From a virus, in IMG/VR virus record IMGVR_UViG_3300028416_000501, positions 1-64,000 of that record: a stretch of 64,000 nt of DNA; one strand, 5' to 3'. Below, piece by piece: positions 641 to 17,012 of the stretch (the stretch's first letter is position 1; each line of letters opens with the position of its first letter). Under the pieces are notes generated by a model. The model made no database searches and was not told the origin of the DNA. It saw only the letters and a program-made list of their open reading frames with translations. Both the position numbers and the translations under genes were made by a program.

Positions 641-1537
641 ATGAAAATAGATGATATCATAAATGAAAGAATAACAAGACCTGGCGATGATACAGATCCA
701 TCATTGTGGCAAAGAATTAAAGGATTATTTAAATCTAATCCACTAGGTACTGATGATAGAAAATCTAGACGAAATAAACTAGATGATATTGAAACACGTA
801 GAGCTCAAAAAATTCGAAAACGTAATAAACAAGATACAGATATTAGACAACAGAATAAAATTAAAGGCTTAGAAGTTGATCAATTACAACGTGATAGGTA
901 CAGAGAAAGAGATGCAATTGAAGACAATATCGCTGATATAATTGCACAAAAGAAATTTGGAAAAGATCATCATGAACTTGATGACCTGGATCGTAGAAAT
1001 GTTATTATGACTGCTAGATATCTAGCAAACGATCTAGAAGCATATCCTGATTTACTTGATGATCCAGATTATCAATCTGACTTTAAGAAAAAATATCCAC
1101 AAGGGTTAGTACCGCATTGGGGGAAAAATTTAGATGGAACAGATGCGAAAGATTATTACCATTCCAGAAATGGTGGTTCAGGACCTCGCCCAGAATACAA
1201 GCATCCAGCATTTAAGACAATGTATCAATATGACGAACCTGGATATGATGAAAACTTACAAAAAAGAACTATGCAAGATCAGTATTATACTCGATCACAA
1301 GTAGCAAAAGATAATAATATACAATTCCAACCAAGACAAGACATTTATAATCTTAACACATCACAAGCAAATAAAGAAAGAGATGAAAGAATTGCCACTG
1401 GAAAATCTAATATCAAAAATATAGAAATAAAAAGAAAACTTAATAAAGCAACAACAGATACTCCTACTGATAGCACTCAGAAGAAATTTGCAAGGGATAT
1501 CATGCAGAATAACACAGGTAATAATCAAAAGAAATGA
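641..1537 (+). CDS. Hypothetical virion internal protein with MKIDDIINE leader
   Basis: 298 aa ORF, AGGA SD, leader motif shared with neighbours. Confidence 0.65.
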   Translation: MKIDDIINERITRPGDDTDPSLWQRIKGLFKSNPLGTDDRKSRRNKLDDIETRRAQKIRKRNKQDTDIRQQNKIKGLEVDQLQRDRYRERDAIEDNIADIIAQKKFGKDHHELDDLDRRNVIMTARYLANDLEAYPDLLDDPDYQSDFKKKYPQGLVPHWGKNLDGTDAKDYYHSRNGGSGPRPEYKHPAFKTMYQYDEPGYDENLQKRTMQDQYYTRSQVAKDNNIQFQPRQDIYNLNTSQANKERDERIATGKSNIKNIEIKRKLNKATTDTPTDSTQKKFARDIMQNNTGNNQKK

Positions 1538-1797
1538 ATGTAAGCAAAGAAAACATTTGGCATTTTACTTGTGATTACTGTCAAGGTTTTTGGAGTATAG
1601 CGACTATGGATGAGTGGAACCCAAAAGAGTTATACTGTACACATTGTGGAAAACTAAATAAAAATGATAATGGAAAGTTTAGTGAGGCAAAGTTTAAAAA
1701 AGAGGAATGGTGTTCATGTGGACATAGAATTATAGATTGCGATTGCAAGCCAGGATGCGAATGTGGATGCAATAGTAAATTTTTAGGAGCATACTAA
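1534..1797 (+). CDS. Zn-ribbon plus Cys-rich (metallothionein-like) small protein
   Basis: CDYC...CTHC, then CSCGHRIIDCDCKPGCECGC. Confidence 0.65.
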   Translation: MNVSKENIWHFTCDYCQGFWSIATMDEWNPKELYCTHCGKLNKNDNGKFSEAKFKKEEWCSCGHRIIDCDCKPGCECGCNSKFLGAY

Positions 1798-2306
1798 TGA
1801 GAGCAAATGAATTTGTAAAATTATTAAAAGAAGAATATGATATAGGTCAAGATGAATTCCAGGATGCATATTATGATGAGATAGTTACAGTGGTAACCAA
1901 TGTCTGGAAAAGAAAATACCCAGATGTTGAATTACATAACCCAGAAGATGAGTTCGGGTCTGGCCATACATTTGAAACAAAAACACCGTCACCTGAAGAG
2001 GGAGGTTTTACATTAAATTTTGGTTCTCAATTATATCACACCAAAGATGAACAAGGATCGCCTGAGAACCTGTTTTATATAGTTGTCTCAAATGCGTATT
2101 CAGGCAACTTCAAAGGTGTTGTACTAGATATGTTAGCGAGTGTATATACACTTATGGAAAGCAAACTACAAGAGTATGCACCTGGATCTAATAGAGCTGA
2201 ATTTAAAAGAATGCTTGGCGTTCATCATAATAGAAACAATGAAGCATGGTCAAATATTGCAAGAAAACTAGGTGCAGTTGAAGAACCAAGGGGACGTGAC
2301 CAATGA
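1797..2306 (+). CDS. Hypothetical protein with MRANEF...LKE leader; possibly GNAT-like fold
   Basis: Leader motif; C-terminal N..AW..IA.KLG pattern weakly GNAT-like. Confidence 0.5.
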   Translation: MRANEFVKLLKEEYDIGQDEFQDAYYDEIVTVVTNVWKRKYPDVELHNPEDEFGSGHTFETKTPSPEEGGFTLNFGSQLYHTKDEQGSPENLFYIVVSNAYSGNFKGVVLDMLASVYTLMESKLQEYAPGSNRAEFKRMLGVHHNRNNEAWSNIARKLGAVEEPRGRDQ

Positions 2307-2524
2307 AAATGGACGACATATACAAATTAAAATATCTAGCAGGTATAACTGATAGAGATGGTAATAAAGTGAAAGAAGATAACGGCGGTAGTAATATAAG
2401 TATTACAGGCTCCGAAAAGGGACGCATTCAGCGTGAAAAGAACATACAGCCTGGAACAGATGAGTGGTTTAAACATTGGTTTTCAAAACCTCATCTAACT
2501 GGCGAAAAATCAACAGGAAAATAA
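2303..2524 (+). CDS. Small hypothetical virion-associated protein
   Basis: ATGA overlap; MKMDDI leader, LKYLAGI and PGTDEWFKHWF motifs. Confidence 0.6.
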   Translation: MKMDDIYKLKYLAGITDRDGNKVKEDNGGSNISITGSEKGRIQREKNIQPGTDEWFKHWFSKPHLTGEKSTGK

Positions 2525-2525
2525 C

Positions 2526-2888
2526 ATGGAATTAGAAACAATCATATTGTTTGCTTTAATGTGCAAACATGCAGTAGCCGATCTAGCTATACAATCATTT
2601 AGAGTACCATCTAAAAAGAGGCTTTGGTTAAACAGAGGATTACATTTACATGCAATGGATCACGCAGTACTAACATTTATAGTATTGTTATTCTGGGTTA
2701 ATCCTTGGTTAGCATTGGGATATGCATTAATTGACTATATTGCACACTGGCATATTGATTGGTTTAAATCAAACATATTATGGGTATTTGGAATATCCAG
2801 AGAAGGTAAGGGGTTTTGGCGTCTACAGACAGTAGACCAGATACTACATTATGCTACATATATGTTTATTGTGTGGTTAATGGTATAA
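2526..2888 (+). CDS. DUF3307-like membrane protein
   Basis: Hydrophobic helices with KH..AD, H..DH, HWHIDW.K and DQ.LH motifs. Confidence 0.7.
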   Translation: MELETIILFALMCKHAVADLAIQSFRVPSKKRLWLNRGLHLHAMDHAVLTFIVLLFWVNPWLALGYALIDYIAHWHIDWFKSNILWVFGISREGKGFWRLQTVDQILHYATYMFIVWLMV

Positions 2889-2892
2889 GAAG

Positions 2893-2900
2893 GATAAATA
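2893..2900 (+). promoter_or_regulatory. T4-type late promoter (GATAAATA)
   Basis: Intergenic, 5 nt before ATG 2906; same spacing as at 12097-12104. Confidence 0.6.
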
Positions 2901-2905
2901 GTTGT

Positions 2906-3367
2906 ATGAAGATAAATGAAATAGATTGTTGGGATGGTTACAAAAAAGATGGAACCAAGCCCGGCACAGGTAAAAACAAAGGTAAACGTGTAAACAATTG
3001 CGTCAAAGAAGACGAAGTTACACTAGATGAATCACAAGATTTCCATGAAGAGTTTGGATATCTAGGATACAGTATTGACGAAAGTGATCTTTTTGAAGCG
3101 GAATATCAAGGACGTACTGTTAAACTTAACAAGCCAACAAGAGGTGATGTTAAAAAGTTTAAAGTATATGTTAAGGACCCAAAAACTGGAAACGTTAAAA
3201 AAGTAAACTTTGGACATGGCGGAAGCAGTGCTAAATCAAAAGGTGAGAAGACTATGAAAATTCGTAAGTCTAATCCTAAAGCACGTAAGAGTTTCCGTGC
3301 AAGACATAACTGTGATAATCCTGGACCTAAAACAAAAGCTCGTTACTGGTCATGCAGGAAGTGGTGA
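2906..3367 (+). CDS. Basic modular virion protein (MKINEI leader; CWDGYKK...NCVKE and AEYQGR...RARHNC...YWSCRKW modules)
   Basis: Start moved from 2816 to in-frame ATG 2906 after the late promoter; modules separated by VKE/LDE/LFE. Confidence 0.7.
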   Translation: MKINEIDCWDGYKKDGTKPGTGKNKGKRVNNCVKEDEVTLDESQDFHEEFGYLGYSIDESDLFEAEYQGRTVKLNKPTRGDVKKFKVYVKDPKTGNVKKVNFGHGGSSAKSKGEKTMKIRKSNPKARKSFRARHNCDNPGPKTKARYWSCRKW

Positions 3368-3373
3368 TTCTAG

Positions 3374-6337
3374 ATGAGAATAACTGAAGTAGACAAAGGT
3401 TTAACACAAAGTGAACTGGATCAATTAGAAGTCTTTGCAGATAGATTATTTGCGAAGGTAGGCATTGATGTAGAGTTTACCCGTCACTTCTTAGATCGTG
3501 TAAATGACGAACGTAATGTAAAACAAATTACAGCAAGTGAACTTACAAGATTATTTAAACAAGAATATAAACGTTGGGGTAAACCTATTGCACAAATGGG
3601 CCCAGACTCAGAAGCAGTACTAAAAGATTTAGCAACAGACGTAAACATACCATTTGCTTTACGTTGGGACAAAGAAAACAACGAATTAGATCTCATTGCT
3701 AAAACAGTGATGCGTAAAAAGAATTTTAAAACATCTAACAAAGAGTTTGAAGTACAATCAGTTGATTACTCGTTAGATAATATACAACACAAAAAAGTAT
3801 TTGAATCAATACAACAACTCAACGAAGCAGGCCCGGCAGCATTAGCAGTACCAGTTGGTATTGCGGCATGGAATGCCTATGTATATTCCAGATATGCTCA
3901 AGCAGCTTGGTTTACTGCAAAATTTACTGCAACTACAGCCGCAGCATATATTGTTGCTAATGCAGATGACTTTGGCTGGCTTGAAAGAAAAATGGCTTCA
4001 TCGGCTATTCTTGCATATCAACTATGGGACAAAGTTAGAGGCGTACAAGATATGAGCAGTGTTCAGTGGAGAGACACTAATGCATCAGCAATGGCAGCCG
4101 GACAACAAGGAGCTGAAAATCCATTAGGTCCTAGGCCAACTGCAGATATTGACGGTGATCCATATGGTATTATAAATGCTAGGCAACAAGTAGCCGCAGG
4201 ACAGTTAGGCGCACAAGCACGTTTAGATTTAGCGTTAGCAGATTTGGCCGCTGATCAAAAAGCATGGGATATTGAATCTAATAGAAATAAAGACAAGGAT
4301 GCAAGTGCTGGCGCAATGGCATCAGGTCAAACAGGCGCTACTTTAACACAATTAACATTAGATGCTAGTCAACAATTAAATGGAGAACTAGCCGCAGGTG
4401 TAAGTGAATTAACTGCAAATGCAAATATAGAAACTGAAATAGATAACGAAGAATTAGATAAAATAGCAATAGCAACTGCTAATGCTCAAAATTTAGTAAG
4501 TGATAACAATCTTATAAAACTAGCAACTACAGTAACACAAGCAAGACAAAACGATGATAGTGATGCACAACTTATTTCATTAGCAACTAAAATTGCAACA
4601 GCTCAACAGGCAGCAGCCAAAGTAACTGCACAAAATACAGCCAGTGATGCTAAATTAATTGCACTTGGACAACAAGTAGCACAACAACAAGCAGATAAAT
4701 TAGCAACAGAATTAAGTGATAAAAAACTAATTGCACTTGGACAACAAGTAGCACAACAACAATCAGATGCTAAAGCAACAGAATTAAGTGATAAAAAACT
4801 AATTGCACTTGGACAACAAGTAGCACAACAAAAAGCAATTGCGGCTGCAAATGCTACCAGTGATGCTAACTTAATAGCACTTGGACAACAAGTAGCACAA
4901 CAACAAGCAACTGCACAAAATACAGCCAGTGATGCTAAATTAATTGCACTTGGACAACAAGTAGCACAACAAGAAATAGATACACAAAATGCAACAAGTG
5001 ATGCAAAACTTATTGGACTAGCACAACAACTAGCAGGACAACAAGCAAATGATGTATCTGATGCAAAACTAATTGCACTTGGTCAAGCATATAAGGATGC
5101 TAAAACAAATGCAGCCAGTGATGCAAAACTAATTGCATTAGCAAATGCAGTAAATGATGTTAACATTGAACTTGATCTTCCAATTGATGGTACTAAAGAT
5201 AATGATGTTAAAATTGATATTCCGGCTGAGATTCCATCCGATGTGACAACTACATATCCTGGAGATGCTGGTGCAATAGACGGAGTAGATAATCCAAAAA
5301 TTGCTTATCCAATTCCACACGCCACTGATATTGATATAGCTGGCCCAAGTGCAATTGCAACAACACTAATTACTCCAAACAATAATAACAATAAGAAAAA
5401 TAACAAAAAAACTAGAAAAAAATATAAAACAGGTGGAGATGATTCTGCATATTGGGATACAGATTTAAGAGGCTGGGTTAAAAAGTATGGAACATTTGAA
5501 AGCAAAGAATTTTTTAAAAAATATTTCACATTAAATGAAGGTGGAGCAATGCCAGGTGTTGGTGCTATTCATATTGATGAGATTACTCCAACACTACAAG
5601 CATTAGAAAAATCAATAGGTGTTGACTTAATGAACAACACATTAGGTAGTGTAGGTAAAAGACAATTCAGTGGAGACATTGATGTAGCACTACAAATACA
5701 ACCAGAAGAATTACCAGCATTCATAGAAGAACTTAAAAAGAATCCACTAGTACTAGACATTGCTAAGACTAGTGTTATTATGACAAAAGTTAAAATTATG
5801 GACTTTGATGAATCTAAGTCAGATGGCAGACCACGTACAGGATTTGTACAAGTAGACTTTATGCCAGGCGACCCAGGTTGGATGAAAACTTATTATCACT
5901 CACCAAGTGAAACAGAATCAAAATACAAAGGCGTATATCGTAACATTATGATTGCTACATTAGCCGCAGTACACAACAGAGATAAAAGTGATGCTAAATT
6001 AGATGACGGTAGAGCTATGGAAGAAAGACGCTTTATGTGGAGTCCAACTGAGGGATTGTTGCGTGTACAACGCACACCAGTTCCTAAGAAAAGTGGCGAT
6101 GGATATACTAAAAAGAATAAAAATGAAACAATAGACGGTCCTTGGAAACAACCAGATGAGATTGCAACACAACTAGGTTTAGACAGTGGAAAAGATTTAA
6201 ACAGTTTTGAATCATTACTAGCCGCAGTTAAAAAGAATTGGACCAAAGAAAAATTACAGTATGTTATAGATGGATTCAAGCAAAACAATGTTGTACAAGA
6301 CATTGGCGTGCCTGAGGAATTAGACGATGTTAATTAA
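3374..6337 (+). CDS. 987-aa polyprotein: RegB/RelE-like RNase module, Ala/Gln repeat module, Pol-beta-family nucleotidyltransferase module
   Basis: EFTRHFLDRVNDERN (cf. T4 RegB YSQHLLDR); LGSVGKRQFSGDIDV plus VQVDF (GS-x-DxD...D); LNE junctions at 3818-3826 and 5531-5539. Confidence 0.65.
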   Translation: MRITEVDKGLTQSELDQLEVFADRLFAKVGIDVEFTRHFLDRVNDERNVKQITASELTRLFKQEYKRWGKPIAQMGPDSEAVLKDLATDVNIPFALRWDKENNELDLIAKTVMRKKNFKTSNKEFEVQSVDYSLDNIQHKKVFESIQQLNEAGPAALAVPVGIAAWNAYVYSRYAQAAWFTAKFTATTAAAYIVANADDFGWLERKMASSAILAYQLWDKVRGVQDMSSVQWRDTNASAMAAGQQGAENPLGPRPTADIDGDPYGIINARQQVAAGQLGAQARLDLALADLAADQKAWDIESNRNKDKDASAGAMASGQTGATLTQLTLDASQQLNGELAAGVSELTANANIETEIDNEELDKIAIATANAQNLVSDNNLIKLATTVTQARQNDDSDAQLISLATKIATAQQAAAKVTAQNTASDAKLIALGQQVAQQQADKLATELSDKKLIALGQQVAQQQSDAKATELSDKKLIALGQQVAQQKAIAAANATSDANLIALGQQVAQQQATAQNTASDAKLIALGQQVAQQEIDTQNATSDAKLIGLAQQLAGQQANDVSDAKLIALGQAYKDAKTNAASDAKLIALANAVNDVNIELDLPIDGTKDNDVKIDIPAEIPSDVTTTYPGDAGAIDGVDNPKIAYPIPHATDIDIAGPSAIATTLITPNNNNNKKNNKKTRKKYKTGGDDSAYWDTDLRGWVKKYGTFESKEFFKKYFTLNEGGAMPGVGAIHIDEITPTLQALEKSIGVDLMNNTLGSVGKRQFSGDIDVALQIQPEELPAFIEELKKNPLVLDIAKTSVIMTKVKIMDFDESKSDGRPRTGFVQVDFMPGDPGWMKTYYHSPSETESKYKGVYRNIMIATLAAVHNRDKSDAKLDDGRAMEERRFMWSPTEGLLRVQRTPVPKKSGDGYTKKNKNETIDGPWKQPDEIATQLGLDSGKDLNSFESLLAAVKKNWTKEKLQYVIDGFKQNNVVQDIGVPEELDDVN
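4499..5143 (+). repeat. In-frame tandem repeat, 10 copies of SDxxLIxL(GQQVAQQ)
   Basis: Near-identical DNA units such as ...taattgcacttggacaacaagtagcacaacaa; unit length about 20-26 codons. Confidence 0.9.
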
Positions 6338-7055
6338 CGAAATAACAAAAGCGAATCTAAATGAAAGTAATGTTATTAGAGATGTTGCTAAAGAACTTAA
6401 TATACCATTTGCAATAGCTATGGAACTTTCTAATAAAGAAAGTTCTCAAGGTCAGTTTGATAAAGATGGTAATACTATTGTAGGTGATAAAAACTTAAAA
6501 AATAAAGCATATGGAATGTCTCAGGTTAGATTGCCTGCATTAAAAGATGTCAATAGGTTATATGGAACAAACTATTCATTAGATGATATAAAAAATGATG
6601 CAAATATAAATGCTAAGGTAGGATTATTGTATTTTAAAGCACAAGGTGATTTTTATGGTGCAACAGATTATATAGAACAACTTAGAGGATATAACGGCGG
6701 TCCTAACGCAATTAAAGGTGATGTAGCATCAGCAAATAGTTATGCAAATGATATTTTTGATAAAGCAGTGATGAATTACAATGGCGCAGATGCGTTAGAA
6801 AACTTTGGGCTAAACGAAGCTAGTCCTTGGGAATTACTTAAAAGAAAAGTAACACCAGTAGTACAAAAAGACAAATACCAACGTGTTGCAGAAAAACTAC
6901 ATGCAATGTTATTACGCAAACAAAAAGAAAACGGTGGTGTATTTAGACATGCATTAGGTTGGTACACATATAATATTGGTACTTCATACAAAGGCATTGA
7001 TCATAAAGTTCTTCATCAATATTACTTAGATAATTTTGATGTAGTTGTTGATTAA
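6327..7055 (+). CDS. Lytic transglycosylase (SLT-like) with MLINEI...LNE leader and extra C-terminal module
   Basis: KESSQG catalytic Glu motif, AYGMSQV, NAKVGLLY, YNGG. Confidence 0.75.
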   Translation: MLINEITKANLNESNVIRDVAKELNIPFAIAMELSNKESSQGQFDKDGNTIVGDKNLKNKAYGMSQVRLPALKDVNRLYGTNYSLDDIKNDANINAKVGLLYFKAQGDFYGATDYIEQLRGYNGGPNAIKGDVASANSYANDIFDKAVMNYNGADALENFGLNEASPWELLKRKVTPVVQKDKYQRVAEKLHAMLLRKQKENGGVFRHALGWYTYNIGTSYKGIDHKVLHQYYLDNFDVVVD

Positions 7056-7060: not shown

Positions 7061-7090
7061 TTGACAACTATATACATTATAATGTATAAT
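7061..7090 (+). promoter_or_regulatory. Sigma70-type promoter overlapped by an 18-bp perfect palindrome
   Basis: TTGACA-18nt-TATAAT; TATACATTATAATGTATA at 7071-7088. Confidence 0.7.
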
Positions 7091-7108: not shown

Positions 7109-8287
7109 ATGACAGACAAATATTGCATATACACAAACAACTTTACATTCGTTGACAACGACGGCTATGTAGCGTTATGTTGTAAAAATCTAAAAAACAA
7201 ATTATCCAATTATCACATAAAAGATTATAAACTTAGTGAAATATGGAATAGTCCCGAAATGCACGCCGTCAGAGCAGAAATAGCCTCCGGTGGTGAACCT
7301 AATGGTTGTTTTAAATGTTACGATCCCGAAAGAGATGGAATACGTAGTTTTAGACAAAAAGCATTAGGAATGATTAATAGAGGAATTCCATTTGAAGATG
7401 AAAAAATACATGCACTTGATTTAAGATTAGGTAACGTATGTAACTTGTCATGTGTTATGTGTTTTGCTGGTAATAGTAATAAAATATTACATCAACACAA
7501 ATCAATGGCTGAACATTTTGATTGGAAAGAAGGCAGACTAGAAAAAGAAGCAGTTAAGTATCACAAAAGCAATTACGACTGGAGTGATGATCCGCAAGCA
7601 TGGGATAACATTATTAGCAGTGTAGATAAAAATCTAAAGCATGTTTATCTAGCAGGTGGTGAACCTTTTTATCTTAAAAACTTTCCAACAACAGTACAAC
7701 GTCTAGGCAGCTTGGCTCCTGGTGCTAGATTTGTTATTAATACAAATGGCACAAGACTGTTAAGAGAAAAAGATTTAAAACAACTAAAAACAGTGGAAAA
7801 TGTATTCCTAAGATTTAGTGTAGACGGTTGGGGCGCCGCAGATGAGTGGACTAGGCAAGATACAGTGTGGGAAGAAAAACTACAAGTAATGGATCAGTAC
7901 TATAATCACTTTAAATTAAAAGTGTGGGACATTACAGCTAATAGTTTAAGTGTAAGGCACATACCTACACTTATCAAACATTTATGGGAAAAATACCCAA
8001 ATGCAAAAGTACAAATTCGTCCAGTTGTTAATAAAACCGAAGTTCTTATGGAAAACATTCCAGATAGATTTAAAGCAGAATCATTGCGTTTCTTTGAAGA
8101 AAATAAACTAAGACTCGAAGGAGTTGATCATGTTATAAATGAAATGCGTAAACCATTTAATAATGATATGAAACGTAAACATACAGTAAGACATTTTGTA
8201 AACTATTACGATACACATGGAGTAGTTACTCTAGATAGTTTTGATCCTGAGTTAGCAGAATGGATCAATAGCGATGCAGAAGAATAG
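7109..8287 (+). CDS. Radical SAM protein with N-terminal twitch-type Fe-S domain
   Basis: C...CC...CFKC, then CNLSCVMC and AGGEP. Confidence 0.9.
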   Translation: MTDKYCIYTNNFTFVDNDGYVALCCKNLKNKLSNYHIKDYKLSEIWNSPEMHAVRAEIASGGEPNGCFKCYDPERDGIRSFRQKALGMINRGIPFEDEKIHALDLRLGNVCNLSCVMCFAGNSNKILHQHKSMAEHFDWKEGRLEKEAVKYHKSNYDWSDDPQAWDNIISSVDKNLKHVYLAGGEPFYLKNFPTTVQRLGSLAPGARFVINTNGTRLLREKDLKQLKTVENVFLRFSVDGWGAADEWTRQDTVWEEKLQVMDQYYNHFKLKVWDITANSLSVRHIPTLIKHLWEKYPNAKVQIRPVVNKTEVLMENIPDRFKAESLRFFEENKLRLEGVDHVINEMRKPFNNDMKRKHTVRHFVNYYDTHGVVTLDSFDPELAEWINSDAEE

Positions 8288-9500
8288 TTTTTGTTCCATT
8301 CCTTGGATACACGCCGCAACTAAGACAAACGGAACTAGTCGAGTTTGCTGTTTAATGAGTAATCACGATAGTGGCAACGGCGGGCTTACTGGACAAAGTT
8401 TTAAAACTCATACAATAGAAGAAATACATAACAGTGAATTTACACGTAAGATTCGTAAACAATTTTTAGCAGGTGAAAAGCCAGCAGAGTGTAATACATG
8501 TTGGGTTAAGGAAGATAATGGTGGTCAAAGCAGGCGTACATTTACTAATAGGATGTATAAAGAATTTGATTACGATAAAGCAGTACAAGTAACAGATGTA
8601 GACGGCACTACAACACAGATGCCCATATATTGGGATTTAAGGTTTGGTAACTTATGCAATTTAAAATGTGTAATGTGCGGACCTCAAAGCAGCAGTATGT
8701 GGTACAAAGACTGGGCAAAAGTTCACTCCACTGATCATTTTTACGACAGCGGTACAAAAATCAACATTTCGGACGTATCCAAACAAAACAGGAAAGATCG
8801 TGAATCGGATTATGATTGGTGGGAAAGTGAACACTTTTGGGAACAGTTAGATACACACAAGGAACAACTACAACACGTTTACTTAGTAGGTGGTGAGCCT
8901 ATGTTAGTAGAACCTCATTATAAATTTTTACAAAAGCTAATAGACAGTAATATAAGTAAAAATGTAGTACTGGAGTACGATACAAATATCACAAATGTAC
9001 ATCAACGTGCAATTGATCAATGGAAACATTTTAAAAAGTTAATGCTTAGGGTAAGCATAGATGATTTTGGTGAGCAGAATGATTATATACGTTTTCCTAG
9101 TAAATGGTATAAACTAAATGAAAATATACAACGTATCAAAGAGCTTATACCAAATACACAAATAGAAATAAGTGTTACTTGGCAAATGCTTAATGCATTC
9201 ACAATATTAAACTTATTAGATCATTTTAATAATTATCATATTAATATAAGAATACTATCACATCCTGCACATATGGATGTAAAGCACTTACCAAAACAAG
9301 CAAAATTAGATATTATAAATATGTATAATAGTTCTGTACATAAAGATAAACTAAAACATTTAATAAATTATCTGAATAATACATTAGACTACGATGGTAA
9401 TCCATATGATTGTATGATTTTCTTAGAAAAGTTAGATGAAATACGAGGCACAGATTGGAAAAAAACGTTTATTGAATTACATAAATCGATAAATACTTAA
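8274..9500 (+). CDS. Radical SAM protein with N-terminal twitch-type Fe-S domain
   Basis: CSIPW...CC...CNTCW, CNLKCVMC, VGGEP. Confidence 0.9.
   Translation: MQKNSFCSIPWIHAATKTNGTSRVCCLMSNHDSGNGGLTGQSFKTHTIEEIHNSEFTRKIRKQFLAGEKPAECNTCWVKEDNGGQSRRTFTNRMYKEFDYDKAVQVTDVDGTTTQMPIYWDLRFGNLCNLKCVMCGPQSSSMWYKDWAKVHSTDHFYDSGTKINISDVSKQNRKDRESDYDWWESEHFWEQLDTHKEQLQHVYLVGGEPMLVEPHYKFLQKLIDSNISKNVVLEYDTNITNVHQRAIDQWKHFKKLMLRVSIDDFGEQNDYIRFPSKWYKLNENIQRIKELIPNTQIEISVTWQMLNAFTILNLLDHFNNYHINIRILSHPAHMDVKHLPKQAKLDIINMYNSSVHKDKLKHLINYLNNTLDYDGNPYDCMIFLEKLDEIRGTDWKKTFIELHKSINT
9488..9495 (+). promoter_or_regulatory. T4-type late promoter (GATAAATA)
   Basis: 22 nt upstream of leader-bearing gene 9518. Confidence 0.5.
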
Positions 9501-9517: not shown

Positions 9518-10177
9518 ATGAAAATACATGATATCATAACTGAAAATAACGGTGTTAAGAGAGTTAACACTGGTATTGACATGAAGGCAGCACTGGCTAA
9601 ACGAGCTGCACAGATATCATCACCAGGAACTAATCCAACCTTAAATACTAGAACAAACGTTACTAGAAATAGCAATTCAGCTACAGGTACTACACATAAA
9701 ACATTTAGCAAGTATATATCTAAAACAGGCGATCTGGGTGGAACATCATTAAGTAAAGTAAACAATATAAAAAAATCAGCAGATGGAGCCACAGGCACTA
9801 GCACAAAACGATTTGTTAGACCAGGTGGAGCAGGAACACAAAGCGTAACAGACGTTGGTACTGGGCAAACAACTAATACTAAGTTCCAATTAAAAGGTCC
9901 ACAAAGTTGGGCATACGATAAACCAAAAACAACTAATAAGGTAGCTAACCTAAATGCTTCTAAGAAAATAAAAGAAGATGGTGTAATTGTTCCAGGTGTT
10001 AACACTACAGTAGATGTTAAGCCAGGGCAAACTGAAAAAGAAGCGGCCAAGTTTTTTGGAAAAGGCAAACCAGCAGAATTACACAAAAAAGCACGTAAGA
10101 ATAGTAATGCCCATAATTTATATAATTTAGGTTTAACAGAAGATAAAGACATACCTAAAGAGGGAAAAAGAAAATAA
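9518..10177 (+). CDS. Basic virion internal protein (MKIHDIITE leader; IKE|DGVIVPGVNTTVDV module)
   Basis: Leader motif; T/G/K-rich. Confidence 0.65.
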   Translation: MKIHDIITENNGVKRVNTGIDMKAALAKRAAQISSPGTNPTLNTRTNVTRNSNSATGTTHKTFSKYISKTGDLGGTSLSKVNNIKKSADGATGTSTKRFVRPGGAGTQSVTDVGTGQTTNTKFQLKGPQSWAYDKPKTTNKVANLNASKKIKEDGVIVPGVNTTVDVKPGQTEKEAAKFFGKGKPAELHKKARKNSNAHNLYNLGLTEDKDIPKEGKRK

Positions 10178-10498: not shown

Positions 10499-10690
10499 AT
10501 GAAAATAAATGACATATTAAAATTACCTAATATAGAAATAGGCGACGAGATACTTGTGGGTAAATTTAAAAACCGTAAAGCAACTGTAACTGGTTTTGCA
10601 GTAGATGACAACAATCAACCTGTGTTAAAAACAACTAAAGGCGATCAAAAACTATTCAAACCTAGAATAGTTAAACTAATGGATAAGTAA
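10499..10690 (+). CDS. Small SH3-like beta protein with MKINDI leader
   Basis: IEIGDEILVGKFKNRKATV pattern; leader motif. Confidence 0.55.
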   Translation: MKINDILKLPNIEIGDEILVGKFKNRKATVTGFAVDDNNQPVLKTTKGDQKLFKPRIVKLMDK

Positions 10691-10691
10691 A

Positions 10692-11079: not shown

Positions 11080-11313
11080 ATGTCAAATAAAAAATTTAAT
11101 AAAGAAGAACTAAAGGACACACACGGTCCTATGAACAGTGTAGCAAAAGACGATGCATTAGTATGGGCTGGAGCACCAGACGTAAAGCATTTAAGTAAAC
11201 TAGAACCTCATAAACGTAGAGAGGTTATTGCTAAAAAACAAAAAGCAAAAAACAGTAGTAAAAAACATGATAGAAATTTAGGTAAGCAAATACTTAAAAA
11301 TATAGAGGAGTAA
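11080..11313 (+). CDS. Small basic hypothetical protein
   Basis: 77 aa ORF between GNAT and oxygenase genes. Confidence 0.55.
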   Translation: MSNKKFNKEELKDTHGPMNSVAKDDALVWAGAPDVKHLSKLEPHKRREVIAKKQKAKNSSKKHDRNLGKQILKNIEE

Positions 11314-11316
11314 CAT

Positions 11317-12078: not shown

Positions 12079-12096
12079 GGGTTTCTAATCGAATTA

Positions 12097-12104
12097 GATA
12101 AATA
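12097..12104 (+). promoter_or_regulatory. T4-type late promoter (GATAAATA)
   Basis: Intergenic, 5 nt before ATG 12110; preceded by TCTAAT-cga-ATTAGA hairpin. Confidence 0.6.
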
Positions 12105-12109
12105 CTTGT

Positions 12110-12316
12110 ATGAAGATTACGGACATAATAACCGAAGATGCTGACGCAGGAAGTACAATGGCAGGTAATATTGCTAGTGTTTCTTTTCCTATGACGCCCG
12201 GAACCAAGAAAAAAGACGCTCGTAAGGCAGTTGATCCTAACGGATACTTAGGTAATGGTAAACGTAAAAAGCAAAGCGTAGGTTATACCGAAGAAGTAAA
12301 GGTTATCAGACGATGA
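12110..12316 (+). CDS. Small virion protein with MKITDIITE leader
   Basis: Leader motif; late promoter. Confidence 0.65.
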   Translation: MKITDIITEDADAGSTMAGNIASVSFPMTPGTKKKDARKAVDPNGYLGNGKRKKQSVGYTEEVKVIRR

Positions 12317-12609
12317 GAGCAGACCAATTAGAAAGCATTTATGCAAAAAACAGAGACGAGCCTATGAATCCTGAAGTATTAATACAAGGATATGGTAGAC
12401 TTAATCTTAAACAAGTAGAGGCTAAAGTAGTATCTATGTTTAAAGAGATTGCACAAATGGGTGAAAACGGAGATTGGGAAAATGTTGAATACAATCTAAA
12501 CAAAGGTTTAGTACAAACATTTATAAAAGCCATCAATGAAACCTATGAAGAATTAGAAACAATTAGAAAACGCGGCGGTAAGAACAGTCGTGGCATTAAT
12601 AAGAGGTAA
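12313..12609 (+). CDS. Hypothetical protein (MRADQLE leader)
   Basis: ATGA overlap. Confidence 0.6.
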   Translation: MRADQLESIYAKNRDEPMNPEVLIQGYGRLNLKQVEAKVVSMFKEIAQMGENGDWENVEYNLNKGLVQTFIKAINETYEELETIRKRGGKNSRGINKR

Positions 12610-12613
12610 CGAC

Positions 12614-13660: not shown

Positions 13661-13662
13661 TT

Positions 13663-14235
13663 ATGTTTACTATGGCCCAATTTGAAAAGAACGAAGATAA
13701 TAATTATCATACAGAAAATGGTATTGAAATGGCAAAACATTTTGGTACTGAAGATGAACAAAAGTTAATGTTACAAATTCAAAAAGATCATTATGCTCGT
13801 GGGCATATTAACCCAGATGAAATTGAAGCACGTAATGGTATCGTTAAAAAATATTGGCACATGCTAGAAAGCATTTGTGAAGGTGTTAGCGATGATGAAA
13901 TTGCAAAACATTACAGAATGTTAAAACTTCCAAGTATGAAGTCATGGGAAAAACTAGTTAAAATGGGCCTTCCTAAACAAAAGGCTAATGAAGACTCAGG
14001 ACATGATAGACAATATTATAGAGATCTAGACAAAGGCCAACTTAACCACACTAAATCAATGTTAATGAAAACTGCATCTCAATTAGAAGTAGCAATTAAT
14101 CAAAGATCAAAATTCAGTAGAGAATTAATGGGAAATGGCGATAAAGCCGGTACAGGCGATCTGTATAATATGTTAGACAAACTCAACAAATTAATTGAAG
14201 AGTGGGACAACGAAACAGAATTATACGGAATGTAA
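13663..14235 (+). CDS. Hypothetical modular phage protein
   Basis: 190 aa; ICE and ANE junctions. Confidence 0.6.
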   Translation: MFTMAQFEKNEDNNYHTENGIEMAKHFGTEDEQKLMLQIQKDHYARGHINPDEIEARNGIVKKYWHMLESICEGVSDDEIAKHYRMLKLPSMKSWEKLVKMGLPKQKANEDSGHDRQYYRDLDKGQLNHTKSMLMKTASQLEVAINQRSKFSRELMGNGDKAGTGDLYNMLDKLNKLIEEWDNETELYGM

Positions 14236-14246
14236 GGAGAGCTATT

Positions 14247-15608
14247 ATGAGATTAAGTAATTTAGAAGAAGGTAGTTATAATAACGCACCAGAGCCAAAG
14301 AAAATGCAAGTAACAGTTGCTGATAAAAAAAGTAACACTGAAGCATGGAAACGTTATCAAGCAGGCGACTCAAGATACGAATTTAAAAATCCAACAACTG
14401 AAGCAGAAAAACAATCAGACATTAGAGAAGATTCTAAAGGCAGAGCTGAAAGTATAAAAAACATTGACGAGATTCTAGTAAAGATGGGTGCTGATGCTCC
14501 AAGCGATATCATTGCTGATATTATGCATTGGATTGATGCACACCCAGGAGAAAACTTAGAAGACTTAATAAGACAAGCTAATGGTTATTACAACGATGAA
14601 TTAGAAGAATCAACAACAGTAACTGAAGCAGGCGGATATTACACACAACCAATATACGACATGATTAAACAACATGGTTATCCAAAAGTAATGCATGAAC
14701 TACTAACAAGTTTAGATGCAGATGTAATACAGGATTTTATAAACCGTGCAGAGTTAGATGAAAATACATATGATACTAAAGACTTTGAATTTAATCCAAG
14801 AGCTGGACATAGAGACCAAATGTCACATCCAGAAAATCGTGGATTAGATGCAAATCCAAATAAATCATATAGTCCACGTCCAAAAGCTCGTCCAAAGAAT
14901 CTTAAAGCACCTATGACAAGCCCACGTCCAAAAGCTCGTCCAAAAGATTTAGAAATGAAGTTCAATATTAATAAAGCAGTACAGCAGGCAGTAGCAAGTG
15001 AAGGCAAAAGCCCACACAAAAAAGGTACTGCAAAGTACAAAAAGCATATGGCGGCAATGCATGCAGAATCAAAGATTAATGAGTTTGGTCCTGATGAACG
15101 TTATATGAAGATTGGCAATAATACAATGATTGCAAATAAGAAAACAGGTAGTGTAAGCAGTACCTTAAATTTAGGTGGTGATAAATCAGCAACTGTTAAT
15201 AATCATCTTAACAAAGATGGTTCAGTTGGTAAAGTTAGTGCAAGAGGAACAGTAAATGGTGTAAAGTTTAAAGCCAGTAACAATGTAACCGGTACTGCAC
15301 CTAAGGCATCAGCAAGTATGCGAGGCATAACTATTAACGCATCTGAAGAACCAAAAGTTAGAGAAGCAGGTTCACCGTGGACTACTACAGGCAAGCATCC
15401 AGAAAAGATGACAACTGATGAGCTATGGAGCGAAATTGCAGTATTTGATCATATACAAGACAGAGGTGAACGTTTAACACCAAAAGATATGATGAGATTG
15501 GATTCATTGTTTAGTTACATGGATACCGCAGAAATGAACGAAGCTATAAAACGCAAAGCAGATTCTATGATGGAATCAGCTAAGTTGAAGAAAAATAAAA
15601 ACAAATAG
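14247..15608 (+). CDS. Modular virion protein (MRLSNLEE leader) with duplicated SPRPKARP motif
   Basis: Start moved to ATG 14247 after AGGAG; many xE junctions; 23-nt exact repeat at 14874 and 14922. Confidence 0.65.
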   Translation: MRLSNLEEGSYNNAPEPKKMQVTVADKKSNTEAWKRYQAGDSRYEFKNPTTEAEKQSDIREDSKGRAESIKNIDEILVKMGADAPSDIIADIMHWIDAHPGENLEDLIRQANGYYNDELEESTTVTEAGGYYTQPIYDMIKQHGYPKVMHELLTSLDADVIQDFINRAELDENTYDTKDFEFNPRAGHRDQMSHPENRGLDANPNKSYSPRPKARPKNLKAPMTSPRPKARPKDLEMKFNINKAVQQAVASEGKSPHKKGTAKYKKHMAAMHAESKINEFGPDERYMKIGNNTMIANKKTGSVSSTLNLGGDKSATVNNHLNKDGSVGKVSARGTVNGVKFKASNNVTGTAPKASASMRGITINASEEPKVREAGSPWTTTGKHPEKMTTDELWSEIAVFDHIQDRGERLTPKDMMRLDSLFSYMDTAEMNEAIKRKADSMMESAKLKKNKNK

Positions 15609-15617
15609 GAGTATATT

Positions 15618-15872
15618 ATGTTTAATTGGATAAAAAAGATGTTTGGCGCAGGCGCTAAAGAACAAGTATGGGTATCTAAGCCCAAAGTGGAAGTAAAGAA
15701 AACTGTTACTAAACCTATTGTTATTAAGCCAGCATTTAAAAACAAAAAAGAATTAGCAAAACTAACCAAAGGCAAGATGGAAGAAATCGGCAGAACGTAC
15801 GGTGTAGAACTTGATAAAAGAAAAAAGAAAGATGCACTAGTTAACGAACTTTGGAAAGCAATTAAGAAATAA
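15618..15872 (+). CDS. Small basic protein with Rho-N/HeH-like nucleic-acid-binding motif
   Basis: KGKMEEIGRTYGVELDKRKKKDALVNEL. Confidence 0.55.
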   Translation: MFNWIKKMFGAGAKEQVWVSKPKVEVKKTVTKPIVIKPAFKNKKELAKLTKGKMEEIGRTYGVELDKRKKKDALVNELWKAIKK

Positions 15873-15884
15873 GGAATTAATAAC

Positions 15885-17012
15885 ATGCGTTTAACAAAAC
15901 TATTTGAAGCAGGCGATATTGATAGAATAAAGAATTTATTAATTGACAAAATTACTTCGTCAGACGAAGAAGCATTATTAAAAAAACTACTAAATGCTAT
16001 GGAATCATCAGGAATAGATGAAAGACTTGTCCAAGCTCTTGCACAAGACCCAGATGCTAAAAGTTTTGGCGTTGACAAAATTGTTGCAGATGTAATGAAC
16101 GTTCCAGGAACAGTAGCGGAAAAGACTCACTTTGCTGATTCGTACTCAAAAGGTTTTATTAATATAAGTGAATTACTCAAAGGTAGTAAAACTACATTAG
16201 AAGCATTGTTACAAAACCAAGCAAAGATTGATCCTGCAAATGAGGAAGAACAAGCAGTTCCGTTTGTTAATAGAGTATTTAAAAGAATGCTATTAGCAGA
16301 CTACAAAGCTCAAGGCGAAGGCACAGGGGAAGTTGCTCTTGCAGTTCTTTCACCTATAATATTTAAAACAAGTGGCGGTAAAGCAGCTGTAGGTGATATA
16401 ATTGTTAAGGGTGACATAAACCATAGAGTTGAAGTTAAAGCACGAGTACCAAGTAAAGACGGTAAGGGTGCAGGTAGCCCAGGTAAATTTGCAGATGCAA
16501 AAATTTATGCAGGTTGGAGGCCAGGAAAAATGTCTGATGTAATTAAAAAATATTATCCAGAATTAGCAAATAGAGTAGCATTAGTTGAGAAGCCTAAAAT
16601 GGGAAAAACAACACACTGTATTACAGGTTCAGGACCAAACACTATTGTATCACTAATAGACCCAGAAAAGTTGCCACAATTTGCAGAAGATTTTGCTACC
16701 GTTGTGTCATTTTTAGGACCTTCATTTAAGCAAAATATAAAAAATGCTATAATAAGCAATAACTCACAAGCATTACAAGATAATGTTGTTAAAATGGTTC
16801 ACGATAAGTATTATGAAGTTAAATCTAAAAGCGAAGATGAGAAATTAGACGGTATTTTAATACTAGATATACCTAGTAACACAGTATTTTATTCACAAGG
16901 ATTTGACCAGATTCAAAAAGCAGGCGGTCAAGTACCTGGATTTTATGTAACAGATCCAAATGGCGGACCAATGGGTGAAGCCAGAGACTTTGCGCCAGGC
17001 ATTCGATTTTAA
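15885..17012 (+). CDS. PD-(D/E)XK restriction-like nuclease with MRLTKLFE leader
   Basis: GTGEVALA...GDIIV...VEVKA catalytic spacing. Confidence 0.6.
   Translation: MRLTKLFEAGDIDRIKNLLIDKITSSDEEALLKKLLNAMESSGIDERLVQALAQDPDAKSFGVDKIVADVMNVPGTVAEKTHFADSYSKGFINISELLKGSKTTLEALLQNQAKIDPANEEEQAVPFVNRVFKRMLLADYKAQGEGTGEVALAVLSPIIFKTSGGKAAVGDIIVKGDINHRVEVKARVPSKDGKGAGSPGKFADAKIYAGWRPGKMSDVIKKYYPELANRVALVEKPKMGKTTHCITGSGPNTIVSLIDPEKLPQFAEDFATVVSFLGPSFKQNIKNAIISNNSQALQDNVVKMVHDKYYEVKSKSEDEKLDGILILDIPSNTVFYSQGFDQIQKAGGQVPGFYVTDPNGGPMGEARDFAPGIRF

What the first reader, a model, noticed from the sequence alone, without database searches (positions are those of the whole stretch)
641..17012. Family of about 12 genes sharing a capsid-targeting-like N-terminal leader: a zip-code for a large injected cargo set
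Seen: otherwise unrelated proteins begin MKIDDIINE (641), MRANEF..LLKE (1797), MKMDDI (2303), MKINEI (2906), MRITEV (3374), MLINEI..NLNE (6327), MKIHDIITE (9518), MKINDI (10499), MKITDIITE (12110), MRADQLE (12313), MRLSNLEE (14247) and MRLTKLFE (15885). Three of them sit directly behind GATAAATA late promoters. I saw no clear match among the metabolic and replication genes. Established: T4 internal proteins carry a roughly 10-aa capsid-targeting sequence (IPIII MKTYQEFIAE) that prohead protease gp21 removes after Glu, and they are ejected with the DNA. Inference: this phage uses an equivalent tag to load many enzymes and peptides into the head for delivery at infection, on a larger scale than T4.
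Basis: partly seen in the sequence, partly recalled or inferred. Interest (0 to 1): 0.82.

Follow-up and report, generated by a model that had tools for sequence, protein, structure and literature searches.

The report
Capsid-cargo leader on jumbo-phage proteins
Twelve otherwise unrelated genes of an uncultured giant marine phage start with the same short tag, which closely resembles the tags phage T4 uses to load proteins into its head and then cuts off; the proteins are therefore probably packed into the capsid and delivered with the DNA, but nobody has measured this.

Summary
Twelve of 24 plus-strand genes in 641-17012 start M-[KRL]-[ILMA]-x-[DENQK]-[ILVF]; none of the other 83 genes on the 79-kb contig does (Fisher 8e-9).

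The signal is in the protein, not the DNA. The exact leader MKIxDIITE heads at least 32 unrelated protein families in IMG/VR, with varied synonymous codons. About half of all occurrences of KIxDIITE directly follow ATG.

The contig is about 23% of a roughly 340-kb phage. Complete relatives carry a PA5oct/RaK2-type T4-like head module, including a gp21-family prohead protease.

The leader looks like T4 propeptides: gp24 MAKINELLRE and IPII/III MKTYQEFIAE. In cultured PA5oct, 5 of 6 proteins with the motif are in the virion proteome, including the small protein just after the portal (MKINDIITE).

The nucleotidyltransferase-like module of the 987-aa gene is preceded by [LI]-x-E in 118 of 118 homologs, whatever lies upstream.

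Best reading (about 0.7): a T4-type capsid-targeting and cleavage leader on a large, swappable cargo set. Packaging, cleavage and injection are untested. A radical-SAM recognition tag is disfavoured.

This scan has already found the same system on sister genomes. I found no paper describing it.

The parts
641..1537 (+). Tagged gene T1, 298 aa, MKIDDIINE|R (leader 641-667), basic (pI 9.3), no known family
1797..2306 (+). Tagged gene T2, 169 aa, MRANEFVKLLKE|E; closest in form to T4 IPII/III MKTYQEFIAE
2303..2524 (+). Tagged gene T3, 73 aa, MKMDDIYKL; its C-terminal module recurs behind MKIRDIITE in IMG/VR locus L019
2893..2900 (+). GATAAATA, 5 nt before the ATG of T4; T4-type late-promoter-like element, probably driving T4-T5-T6
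2906..3367 (+). Tagged gene T4, 153 aa, MKINE|I; Cys/Lys-rich N-module plus a C-terminal phrog_7595 module found in many marine phages
3374..6337 (+). Tagged gene T5, 987 aa, MRITE|V. N-domain (aa 6-151, phrog_23027) ends in LNE151|A. Then an Ala-rich and repeat middle part. Then LNE722|GGAMPGVG starts a Pol-beta-type nucleotidyltransferase-like module (nt 5540-6334).
6327..7055 (+). Tagged gene T6, 242 aa, MLINE|ITKANLNE|S. The SLT-like module (nt 6366-6818) is flanked by LNE on both sides and is missing from relatives, which read MLVNEVTTNE|ASPWELL.
9488..9495 (+). GATAAATA, 22 nt before the ATG of T7
9518..10177 (+). Tagged gene T7, 219 aa, MKIHDIITE|N, very basic (pI 10.2). In relative L004 a different protein starting MQINEI sits at the same place.
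10499..10690 (+). Tagged gene T8, 63 aa, MKINDILKLPNIE; the same domain follows MKIKDIITE in a 724-aa protein of locus L031
12097..12104 (+). GATAAATA, 5 nt before the ATG of T9; probably heads the array T9-T12
12110..12316 (+). Tagged gene T9, 68 aa, MKITDIITE|D, basic. It is the second most common cargo family among the IMG/VR leader hits (18 of 118).
12313..12609 (+). Tagged gene T10, 98 aa, MRADQLE|S; weaker leader with no [LI]-x-E in the first 13 residues
14247..15608 (+). Tagged gene T11, 453 aa, MRLSNLEE|G; contains a module (EGKSPHKKGT.KYKKHMAAMHA) that follows MKISDIITE in locus L130
15885..17012 (+). Tagged gene T12, 375 aa, MRLTKLFE|A. More distant orthologues start MRYKEIQLLLE|Q or MRWQEIHKLFE|Q. 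D...EVK motif and a weak atlas lead to a restriction-endonuclease family.

Best explanation
The shared N-terminus is a T4-type capsid-targeting and processing leader. The consensus is M-[KR]-[IAL]-x-[DE]-[IF]-[IL]-x-E, shortened in some genes to M-x-[IL]-x-E.

Proposed mechanism, by analogy with T4 IPI-III, gp24, gp67 and gp68:
1. The genes are transcribed late.
2. The leader binds the scaffolding core of the assembling prohead, so the attached protein is enclosed.
3. The gp21-family prohead protease then cuts after the Glu of [LI]-x-E. This removes the leader and, in multi-module proteins such as T5 and T6, separates the modules.
4. The mature proteins stay in the DNA-filled head and leave with the DNA at infection.

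Shown here:
- The motif, its restriction to this island and its N-terminal specificity.
- Its presence on at least 32 unrelated families.
- Its likeness to T4 propeptides.
- The gp21-type protease and PA5oct-like head module in complete relatives.
- Virion mass-spectrometry detection of motif-bearing proteins in PA5oct.
- An invariant [LI]-x-E in front of the nucleotidyltransferase-like module.

Inferred, not shown: binding to the core, cleavage, residence inside the head rather than elsewhere in the virion, ejection, and any function in the host.
For: - Clustering: 12 of 24 island genes against 0 of 83 others.
- Unrelated bodies and unrelated upstream DNA.
In 109 of 118 hits an in-frame stop lies no more than 30 codons upstream. 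The hits fall into 32 cargo families, and synonymous codons vary at every position.
- In a control scan without the ATG, 59 of 119 hits are preceded by ATG; about 2% is expected.
- T4 propeptides read from NC_000866: gp24 MAKINELLRE, IPII/III MKTYQEFIAE, gp67 MEGLIE, gp22 MLKEQLIAE. The published rules are that residues 4 and 7 target and residues 8 and 10 govern processing (PMC9026906).
- Relatives G005-G008 (328-365 kb, 55-61% identical in the 897-aa polymerase) all have Peptidase_S77.
- G006 head module compared with PA5oct: portal 49%, protease 54%, scaffold 43%, major capsid protein 66%.
- PA5oct: 5 of 6 motif proteins are mass-spectrometry-positive against 89 of 356 overall, p = 0.004. 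gp150, MKINDIITE, sits between the portal and the protease. Its homologues in RaK2, Atu_ph07, Serratia BF and G006 start with the same kind of leader.
- The homologue of the T5 C-terminal module is PA5oct virion protein gp231.
- 118 of 118 homologues of that module have E at P1, and 117 of the 117 with a P3 residue have L, I or V there, just before GG[AS][ML]PGVG, whether a 4-7-aa leader or a long foreign module precedes it.
- [LI]-x-E ending at residues 7-13: 7 of 12 tagged against 5 of 95 others (p = 2e-5). In G006, 9 of 15 against 40 of 426.
- Cargo is replaced or deleted exactly at leader or LNE joints in relatives.
- The island is syntenic with a leader-rich island upstream of the polymerase in G006.
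- NATAAATA precedes head and tail genes and also cargo genes in G006.
Against: - There are no proteomic, N-terminal or expression data for this phage.
- The contig holds no head genes and no protease, so the protease link rests on relatives.
- The PA5oct virion set is leaky: it also lists ribonucleotide reductase, ClpP and ligase. The test has only 6 motif proteins, and one of them (gp309, an adhesin-like protein) is probably not a true leader.
- Three of the 12 leaders (T3, T8, T10) have no [LI]-x-E in the first 13 residues.
- [LI]-x-E is not depleted inside tagged proteins (ratio 1.05 against 1.18 elsewhere, not significant).
- The invariant [LI]-x-E before the nucleotidyltransferase-like module could in principle be part of its fold.
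- Presence in the virion does not prove a location in the head or ejection.
Confidence: 0.7

Rival explanations
1. The leader does load the proteins into the head, but they are internal structural or DNA-condensing and scaffold-like components. They would be basic peptides comparable to T4 internal peptides, not effectors that act in the next host.
For: Many tagged proteins are small and very basic: T1, T3, T4, T7, T8 and T9 have pI 9.3-10.2. IMG/VR cargo includes Lys-rich peptides of 45-70 aa. The best-anchored example, PA5oct gp150, is a conserved head-module protein in the position of T4 gp67.
Against: Other cargo looks enzymatic: SLT-like, GH19 with a HAD-like N-terminal motif (DIDDTL, read by eye), DUF6267 and GP88, the nucleotidyltransferase-like module, and an NMNAT-like protein in G006. 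Cargo turns over quickly between close relatives, as expected for arms-race genes and not for structural parts.
Confidence: 0.1
2. The leader is a tag read inside the infected cell. It could be a degron or adaptor signal for a Clp or FtsH-type protease, or a signal for another assembly site. In that case presence in the virion would be incidental.
For: PA5oct encodes ClpX, ClpA, ClpS, ClpP and FtsH homologues. Its virion list contains obvious non-structural contaminants. No localisation data exist.
Against: The motif is shared with a conserved head-module protein and resembles known gp21-cleaved propeptides. It co-occurs with [LI]-x-E. No Clp genes are on this contig. A Met-Lys/Arg start does not fit ClpS N-degron rules (my own knowledge, not tested).
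Confidence: 0.07
3. The leader is a recognition sequence for the radical-SAM enzymes that abound in this phage, so the tagged proteins are substrates, as in RiPP systems. Earlier scan finding e1-127136 proposed this for a different shared phage leader.
For: Two radical-SAM genes (7109-9500) sit inside the island, and the contig has 15 ORFs with CxxxCxxC plus GGEP.
Against: Only 11 of 118 leader loci (about 8.6 kb each) contain such an ORF. In G006 the five radical-SAM genes lie at 266-272 kb, at least 48 kb from the leader islands. The only radical-SAM gene I noticed in the PA5oct annotation (first 250 kb) is a QueE-type one, yet PA5oct has the leader. The radical-SAM pair in the window has its own perfect sigma-70 promoter at 7061-7090.
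Confidence: 0.04
4. There is no protein-level function. The N-terminal bias would reflect translation initiation (A/T-rich early codons), or a conserved DNA cassette used for recombination.
For: The codons are A/T-rich (AAA, ATA, GAT). Two tagged genes start 5 nt after GATAAATA and may be leaderless.
Against: The amino acids are conserved while synonymous codons vary: AAA 77 and AAG 41; ATT, ATA and ATC; GAT 70 and GAC 48. The motif is absent from 83 other genes on the contig, and in G006 from the highly expressed structural genes. Upstream sequences differ.
Confidence: 0.04

Closest known systems
Phage T4 internal proteins IPI, IPII, IPIII (and Alt): capsid targeting sequence removed by gp21
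   Same: A short N-terminal leader on otherwise unrelated, fast-evolving proteins. The leader ends in [LI]-x-E. A gp21-family protease is present in the lineage. The T2 leader MRANEFVKLLKE, and G006 MRAREFIIE, are close to MKTYQEFIAE.
   Different: The leader is one residue shorter, with Ile/Leu where T4 has Tyr/Phe. There are 12 tagged genes in 16 kb, and at least 15 per complete relative, against 4 cargo proteins in T4. Several are multi-module proteins with internal [LI]-x-E joints. Nothing has been shown experimentally.
T4 head-protein propeptides: gp24 (MAKINELLRE), gp67, gp68, gp22, gp21
   Same: KINELLxE in gp24 is almost the window's KIN[DE]I[IL]xE. In PA5oct the same leader sits on the small protein directly after the portal, the position of T4 gene 67.
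   Different: Those are conserved structural or core proteins. Here the leader is spread over a variable gene island next to the DNA polymerase, away from the head module.
Ejection and inner-body proteins of phiKZ-like phages and SPN3US, processed by their prohead protease
   Same: Jumbo phages that pack many proteins into the head and cleave them after Glu (PMC5694885).
   Different: Their cleavage motif is A/S/G-x-E. Their propeptides are mostly longer than 100 residues. No common short leader has been described, and they form a different phage lineage with a virion RNA polymerase.
Phage P1 Dar anti-restriction proteins loaded into the head
   Same: Defence-countering proteins packed into the capsid and injected with the DNA (titles and abstracts: PMC9024508, PMC12810830).
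   Different: As I recall, loading there depends on an ordered protein-protein hierarchy (Hdf, DarA), not on a common short cleavable leader. I did not test this here.

Membership tests
T4-type capsid-targeting / gp21-processed propeptide system | Short N-terminal leader (about 10-20 aa or less) shared by otherwise unrelated proteins | tested here: met
   12 genes share 6-9 residues and nothing else. At least 32 families in IMG/VR carry the exact leader.
T4-type capsid-targeting / gp21-processed propeptide system | Leader ends in the protease motif [LI]-x-E | tested here: met
   9 of 12 have [LIVM]-x-E within the first 13 residues. Sites ending at residues 7-13 are enriched (7 of 12 against 5 of 95). 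T3, T8 and T10 lack a clear site.
T4-type capsid-targeting / gp21-processed propeptide system | This genome encodes a gp21-family prohead protease (Peptidase_S77) | tested here: inconclusive
   None on the 79-kb contig or on four short relatives, but the contig is only about 23% of the genome and carries no head genes.
T4-type capsid-targeting / gp21-processed propeptide system | The lineage encodes a gp21-family protease within a T4-like head module | tested here: met
   4 of 4 relatives that are at least 90% complete, and 2 of 5 half-complete ones, have Peptidase_S77. The G006 module matches PA5oct portal, protease, scaffold and capsid protein at 43-66%.
T4-type capsid-targeting / gp21-processed propeptide system | Leader-bearing proteins are found in purified virions | tested here: inconclusive
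   By proxy only. PA5oct: 5 of 6 motif proteins are mass-spectrometry-positive against 25% background, and the T5 module homologue gp231 is positive. There are no data for this phage.
T4-type capsid-targeting / gp21-processed propeptide system | Leader is removed in mature particles (cleavage after Glu) | not testable with these tools
   Indirect only: [LI]-x-E is invariant in front of the nucleotidyltransferase-like module in 118 of 118 homologues.
T4-type capsid-targeting / gp21-processed propeptide system | Leader alone is sufficient to package a foreign protein | not testable with these tools
   Needs a leader-GFP experiment in a cultured relative.
T4-type capsid-targeting / gp21-processed propeptide system | Cargo is hypervariable while the leader is conserved | tested here: met
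   Relatives at 82% identity replace T7 with another protein that starts MQINEI, and drop the SLT module of T6 at the LNE joints.
T4-type capsid-targeting / gp21-processed propeptide system | Late expression together with head genes | tested here: inconclusive
   NATAAATA lies before 3 tagged genes and before the portal, post-portal and sheath genes of G006. No transcript data.
Radical-SAM / RiPP-type recognition leader | Conserved gene linkage between tagged substrates and the modifying enzyme | tested here: not met
   11 of 118 leader loci hold a radical-SAM-like ORF. In G006 the enzymes lie at least 48 kb from the leader islands.
Sec/Tat signal peptide | Hydrophobic core of about 10-15 residues after a basic N-region | tested here: not met
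   The leaders are acidic and amphipathic, 6-12 residues long, and are followed by polar sequence.

The most novel reading that the evidence does not exclude
This clade of roughly 330-365-kb marine phages runs a plug-and-play delivery system. Any module placed behind the 9-residue leader, or between [LI]-x-E joints, is packed into the head, cut free by the head protease and injected. Each virion would then carry a kit of 15-30 ready-made proteins that act before any phage gene is expressed: a nucleotidyltransferase, a nuclease-like protein, wall hydrolases, NMNAT-like and ligase-like enzymes, and basic peptides. That would be a far larger and more modular pre-made arsenal than is known for T4.
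Probability: 0.35. Interest if true: 0.8.

Novelty: new variant of a known kind. Interest (0 to 1): 0.55.

Why it matters
If the leader works as in T4, it gives a simple sequence rule for reading out the injected protein payload of a whole clade of abundant, uncultured marine jumbo phages.

It would point to dozens of candidate first-strike or anti-defence proteins that are otherwise unannotatable. One is a very abundant nucleotidyltransferase-like family, with more than 1,200 clusters in the protein database.

It would also offer a compact tag and protease-joint design for loading foreign proteins into large capsids.

The cultured phage PA5oct carries the same leader on virion proteins, so the idea can be tested directly at the bench.

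Tried and rejected
- Megablast of the island against cultured phages: no match.
- Pfam and PHROGs on the tagged proteins: almost nothing. There is a weak SLT match below the Pfam cut-off and three PHROGs of unknown function.
- Peptidase_S77 on the window's own contig and four short relatives: none, uninformative because these are fragments.
- AlphaFold2 of T12 with 10 homologues: pLDDT 46, unusable. The protein atlas gave only a weak lead (0.82) to RE_Eco47II.
- AlphaFold2 of the nucleotidyltransferase-like module: pLDDT 68, with the catalytic half poorly modelled. Foldseek against the PDB gave no hit at E <= 0.001. PDB sequence searches of both T5 end modules were empty. The nucleotidyltransferase call therefore rests only on the hG[GS]...DxD motif.
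- Depletion of [LI]-x-E inside tagged proteins, expected if they are exposed to the protease: no signal.
- GATAAATA enrichment in the window: none overall. Only its position relative to genes is informative.
- Paralogy of the 12 proteins: rejected.
- A DNA-level cassette: rejected.
- Radical-SAM linkage: rejected.
- The PA5oct paper mentions no propeptides or targeting leader. Literature searches found no description of this leader in RaK2/PA5oct-like or marine jumbo phages.


Full report
**What the window is.** The window is the first 64 kb of a 79,053-bp IMG/VR virus contig that CheckV rates 23% complete, which implies a genome of about 340 kb. Nothing similar at the DNA level exists among cultured phages. 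The 897-aa polymerase-like protein at 20340-23033 is 55-61% identical to proteins in five IMG/VR contigs of 225-365 kb. Four of these are at least 91% complete and two have terminal repeats. It is 47% identical to the DNA polymerase of Pseudomonas jumbo phage PA5oct.

I fetched one complete relative, G006 (329,321 bp), in full. Its head module matches PA5oct: portal 49%, gp21-type protease 54%, scaffold 43% and major capsid protein 66% identity; the sheath is 38% identical. The window therefore comes from an uncultured marine sister group of the PA5oct/RaK2-like jumbo phages, which have T4-type head genes.

**The observation.** Relatives at about 82% identity use the same starts. The pattern ^M[KR][ILMVA].[DENQK][ILVF] matches 11 of 24 plus-strand genes between 641 and 17012, and MLINEI at 6327 is a twelfth. 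It matches none of the 83 other genes on the contig (Fisher 8e-9). Composition predicts 0.3 hits, and only 1 of 658 internal Met positions fits.

The twelve proteins are otherwise unrelated and their upstream DNA differs. Several overlap the stop codon of the preceding gene. The shared element therefore lies in the protein and is not a DNA cassette.

**How widespread and how specific the leader is.** I scanned IMG/VR for ATG-AAR-ATH-NNN-GAY-ATH-ATH-ACN-GAR, which encodes MKIxDIITE.
- In 109 of 118 hits an in-frame stop lies within 30 codons upstream, so these are true N-termini.
- The downstream sequences fall into 32 unrelated families.
- Every degenerate codon position shows mixed synonymous usage.

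A control scan for the same peptide without the ATG returned 119 loci. Of these, 59 were the ATG-preceded ones, against about 2% expected. The peptide is therefore specific to N-termini and selected at the amino-acid level.

The contigs that carry it are nearly all fragments rated 19-65% complete at 70-225 kb, consistent with one clade of genomes of about 330-365 kb.

Several window modules recur elsewhere behind the canonical leader: T3 in L019, T4 in L054, T8 in L031, part of T11 in L130, and the Cys-rich end of the untagged gene at 12614 in L014.

**Likeness to T4.** I read the T4 sequences from NC_000866 rather than from memory.
- IPII and IPIII start MKTYQEFIAE; IPI starts MKTFKEFTSTTTPVSTITE.
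- gp24 starts MAKINELLRE.
- gp67 starts MEGLIE, gp68 MLLIPE, gp22 MLKEQLIAE and gp21 MNEPQLLIE.

The review PMC9026906 states three relevant points. The first 10 residues of IPIII suffice for packaging. Residues 4 and 7 carry targeting, and residues 8 and 10 carry processing. The gp21 cleavage logo includes forms such as L-I-E.

The window's KIN[DE]I[IL]xE is almost gp24's KINELLRE. MRANEFVKLLKE (T2), and MRAREFIIE in G006, are close to MKTYQEFIAE. Earlier scan note e1-5804047 pointed me to gp24, and I verified that sequence myself.

**The protease link.** The contig itself has no Peptidase_S77, but it also has no head genes at all. All four near-complete relatives have one copy, and two of five half-complete relatives do. 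In G006 it sits in the order portal, 74-aa protein, acidic protein, protease, scaffold, capsid protein.

The small post-portal protein occupies the position of T4 gene 67 and is conserved across RaK2-like phages. It starts MKINDIITE in PA5oct, MLFKDIFE in RaK2, MKLTELFNPLTE in Atu_ph07, MLDEIFE in Serratia BF and MNLLEMFNDDIE in G006. The cargo leader is thus the same kind of N-terminus that a core head protein of this lineage carries.

**Virion evidence by proxy.** PA5oct has a published virion proteome (PMC7318152), which its GenBank record marks as ESI-MS/MS. Over the first 250 kb I counted 89 flagged CDS out of 356. Six annotated CDS start with the strict motif:
- gp75, not flagged
- gp150, flagged
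- gp205, flagged
- gp230, flagged
- gp238, flagged
- gp309, flagged

That is 5 of 6, p = 0.004. gp237, which starts MFLKDVKITE, is also flagged.

There are caveats. The sample is small. The list also contains obvious non-structural proteins. gp309 is probably a fibre protein, not a leader protein. The paper itself mentions no propeptide or targeting leader.

The C-terminal module of T5 is homologous to PA5oct gp231, a flagged virion protein that directly follows the leader-bearing gp230.

**Evidence for processing sites.** The T5 C-terminal module begins at GGAMPGVG and carries the Pol-beta-type signature LGSVGKRQFSGDIDVAL. More than 1,200 database clusters match it.

In 118 of the 120 listed homologues the domain start could be located. 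In all 118, P1 is Glu. P3 is Leu (82), Ile (34) or Val (1) in all 117 that have a P3 residue. P2 is free.

This holds whether the domain is preceded by 4-7 residues (MILNE, MLNE, MINE, MKRLSE, MTNKLFE) or by long unrelated N-terminal modules, which themselves begin MRINEV, MKIKQITE or MKINDIIHE. That is what a conserved gp21-type cleavage site at the start of the mature domain would look like. I cannot exclude that these residues belong to the fold.

Within T5, only five [LI]-x-E sites occur in 987 residues. Three of them sit at aa 5, at aa 151 (end of the N-domain) and at aa 722 (start of the C-terminal module).

In T6, the SLT-like module is bracketed by LNE on both sides and is cleanly absent from two relatives, which read MLVNEVTTNE|ASPWELL.

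Independently of the six residues that define the motif, a further [LI]-x-E ending at residues 7-13 is enriched in tagged proteins. The counts are 7 of 12 against 5 of 95 on the contig, and 9 of 15 against 40 of 426 in G006. A test for depletion of [LI]-x-E inside tagged proteins gave no signal.

**Gene organisation and timing.** GATAAATA lies 5, 22 and 5 nt before the ATGs at 2906, 9518 and 12110. Tight gene arrays follow each copy: T4-T5-T6; T7 to 11317; and T9 to 16960.

The octamer is not enriched in the window as a whole. In G006, however, 71 genes (against 125 ATAAATA copies genome-wide on both strands) have one within 60 nt upstream of the start, in the correct orientation. Among them are the portal, the post-portal protein, the sheath and several leader-bearing genes. 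This fits a T4-type late promoter of the form NATAAATA; that consensus is from my own knowledge of T4-like phages.

The two radical-SAM genes in the middle of the island have their own perfect sigma-70 promoter at 7061-7090, so they look like a separately regulated insert.

The island is syntenic with a leader-rich island at 197-218 kb in G006, just upstream of the polymerase. There about 15 of 21 genes start with this leader or a close variant, such as MRAREFIIE, MRFKEILNE, MFLSQLFE or MNIFEMFDE.

**Rivals.**
- Radical-SAM recognition tag. An earlier scan result (e1-127136) proposed this for a different shared phage leader, and this contig is full of such enzymes. I tested the linkage. Only 11 of 118 leader loci hold a radical-SAM-like ORF, and in G006 the five enzymes lie at least 48 kb from the leader islands. 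The only radical-SAM gene I noticed in the PA5oct annotation (first 250 kb) is a QueE-type one, yet it has the leader.
- Translation or DNA-level bias. This is contradicted by the synonymous codon variation and by the motif's absence from other genes.
- A degron or other intracellular tag. This cannot be excluded, but it does not explain the head-module homologue or the [LI]-x-E pattern.
- Purely structural internal proteins. This remains possible for the small basic members.

**What the cargo may be.** Little can be said firmly.
- T6 has a weak SLT match.
- The T4 C-terminus is a module of unknown function shared with many marine phages.
- T5 joins a phrog_23027 N-domain, an Ala-rich and repeat spacer, and the nucleotidyltransferase-like module.
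- T12 has a D...EVK motif and a weak lead to a restriction-endonuclease family.

Elsewhere in the clade the same leader heads a GH19 hydrolase with a HAD-like N-terminal motif (DIDDTL, read by eye), DUF6267 and GP88 proteins, and an NMNAT-like enzyme. Structure prediction did not help.

**Novelty and verdict.** The mechanism proposed is the known T4 one, in a lineage with T4-type head genes, so this is not a new kind of system. Several things appear to be new:
- The leader itself.
- Its spread over dozens of families.
- The size of the tagged set: 12 in this 16-kb island, and at least 15 strict matches in a complete relative.
- The module joints.

I found no paper describing it. This scan has already reported the same leader system on sister genomes, in notes e1-6040290, e1-5804047, e1-5804066 and e1-6100307. 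This window is therefore another instance of it.

I rate the capsid-targeting reading at about 0.7. All steps after 'the motif exists and looks like a gp21 propeptide' are inference.

Noticed in passing
window 2893-2908 and 12097-12112; G006 (L136-L152), for example 319263, 33077, 198492, 206495: A class of genes has NATAAATA only 5-6 nt before the ATG (GATAAATAGTTGT-ATG, GATAAATACTTGT-ATG). If this is a T4-type late promoter, these mRNAs would be leaderless or nearly so. The G006 post-portal head protein belongs to this class.
   Followed up: partly
window 7061-7090 and 7109-9500: A perfect sigma-70 consensus promoter (TTGACA, 18 nt, TATAAT) precedes the two radical-SAM/SPASM-like genes that interrupt the tagged island. 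They seem to be regulated separately from the cargo genes.
   Followed up: partly
window 5540-6334 (C-terminal module of the gene at 3374): The nucleotidyltransferase-like module belongs to a very abundant, highly conserved family: 1,264 database clusters, many about 68% identical, mostly stand-alone proteins of about 280 aa. It has no Pfam model, no PDB relative and no name.
   Followed up: partly
G006 197007 (386 aa) and Melnitz MZ577097 14914-16866 (650 aa): Proteins with the cytidylyltransferase/NMNAT-like motif F(T)FGR(F/M)NPP(T)xGH carry a cleavable-looking leader (MFLSQLFE, MKKFSEIIE). That would mean an NAD-related enzyme is packed into virions. Other Melnitz genes in the same row start MKKFSELTSE, MQGFKTFLSE and MKNFKNHIAE.
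   Followed up: no
window 4640-5140 (within the gene at 3374): About ten tandem helical repeats of the type SDAKLIALGQQVAQQ form the spacer between the N-domain and the C-terminal module. A hydrophobic Ala-rich stretch (aa 152-200) follows the LNE151 site.
   Followed up: no
window 17420-17677: This 85-aa protein sits behind an 11-of-12 sigma-70 promoter (17364-17392). It is conserved upstream of the DNA polymerase in G006 (46% identity) and in PA5oct (gp310, 43%), where it is listed as a virion protein. It has a weak Cro-like Pfam hit.
   Followed up: no
window 3-461: An ORF open at the 5' end continues beyond the window edge. Its basic, Cys-containing C-terminus resembles the C-terminal module of the tagged gene at 2906. 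It may be the tail of another cargo protein.
   Followed up: no
PA5oct MK797984 152875-153833: The leader-bearing 81-aa gp230 (MRLDEIQ) abuts gp231, which holds the nucleotidyltransferase-like module. Together they resemble a split version of the fused leader-plus-module proteins of the marine phages. Both are in the virion proteome.
   Followed up: no
locus L024 (IMG/VR 3300028797_000139, 91 kb, 95% complete): One MKIKDIITE hit lies in a much smaller, nearly complete phage with no Peptidase_S77. It sits on a Cys-rich protein. This is either a chance match or use of the leader outside the jumbo clade.
   Followed up: no
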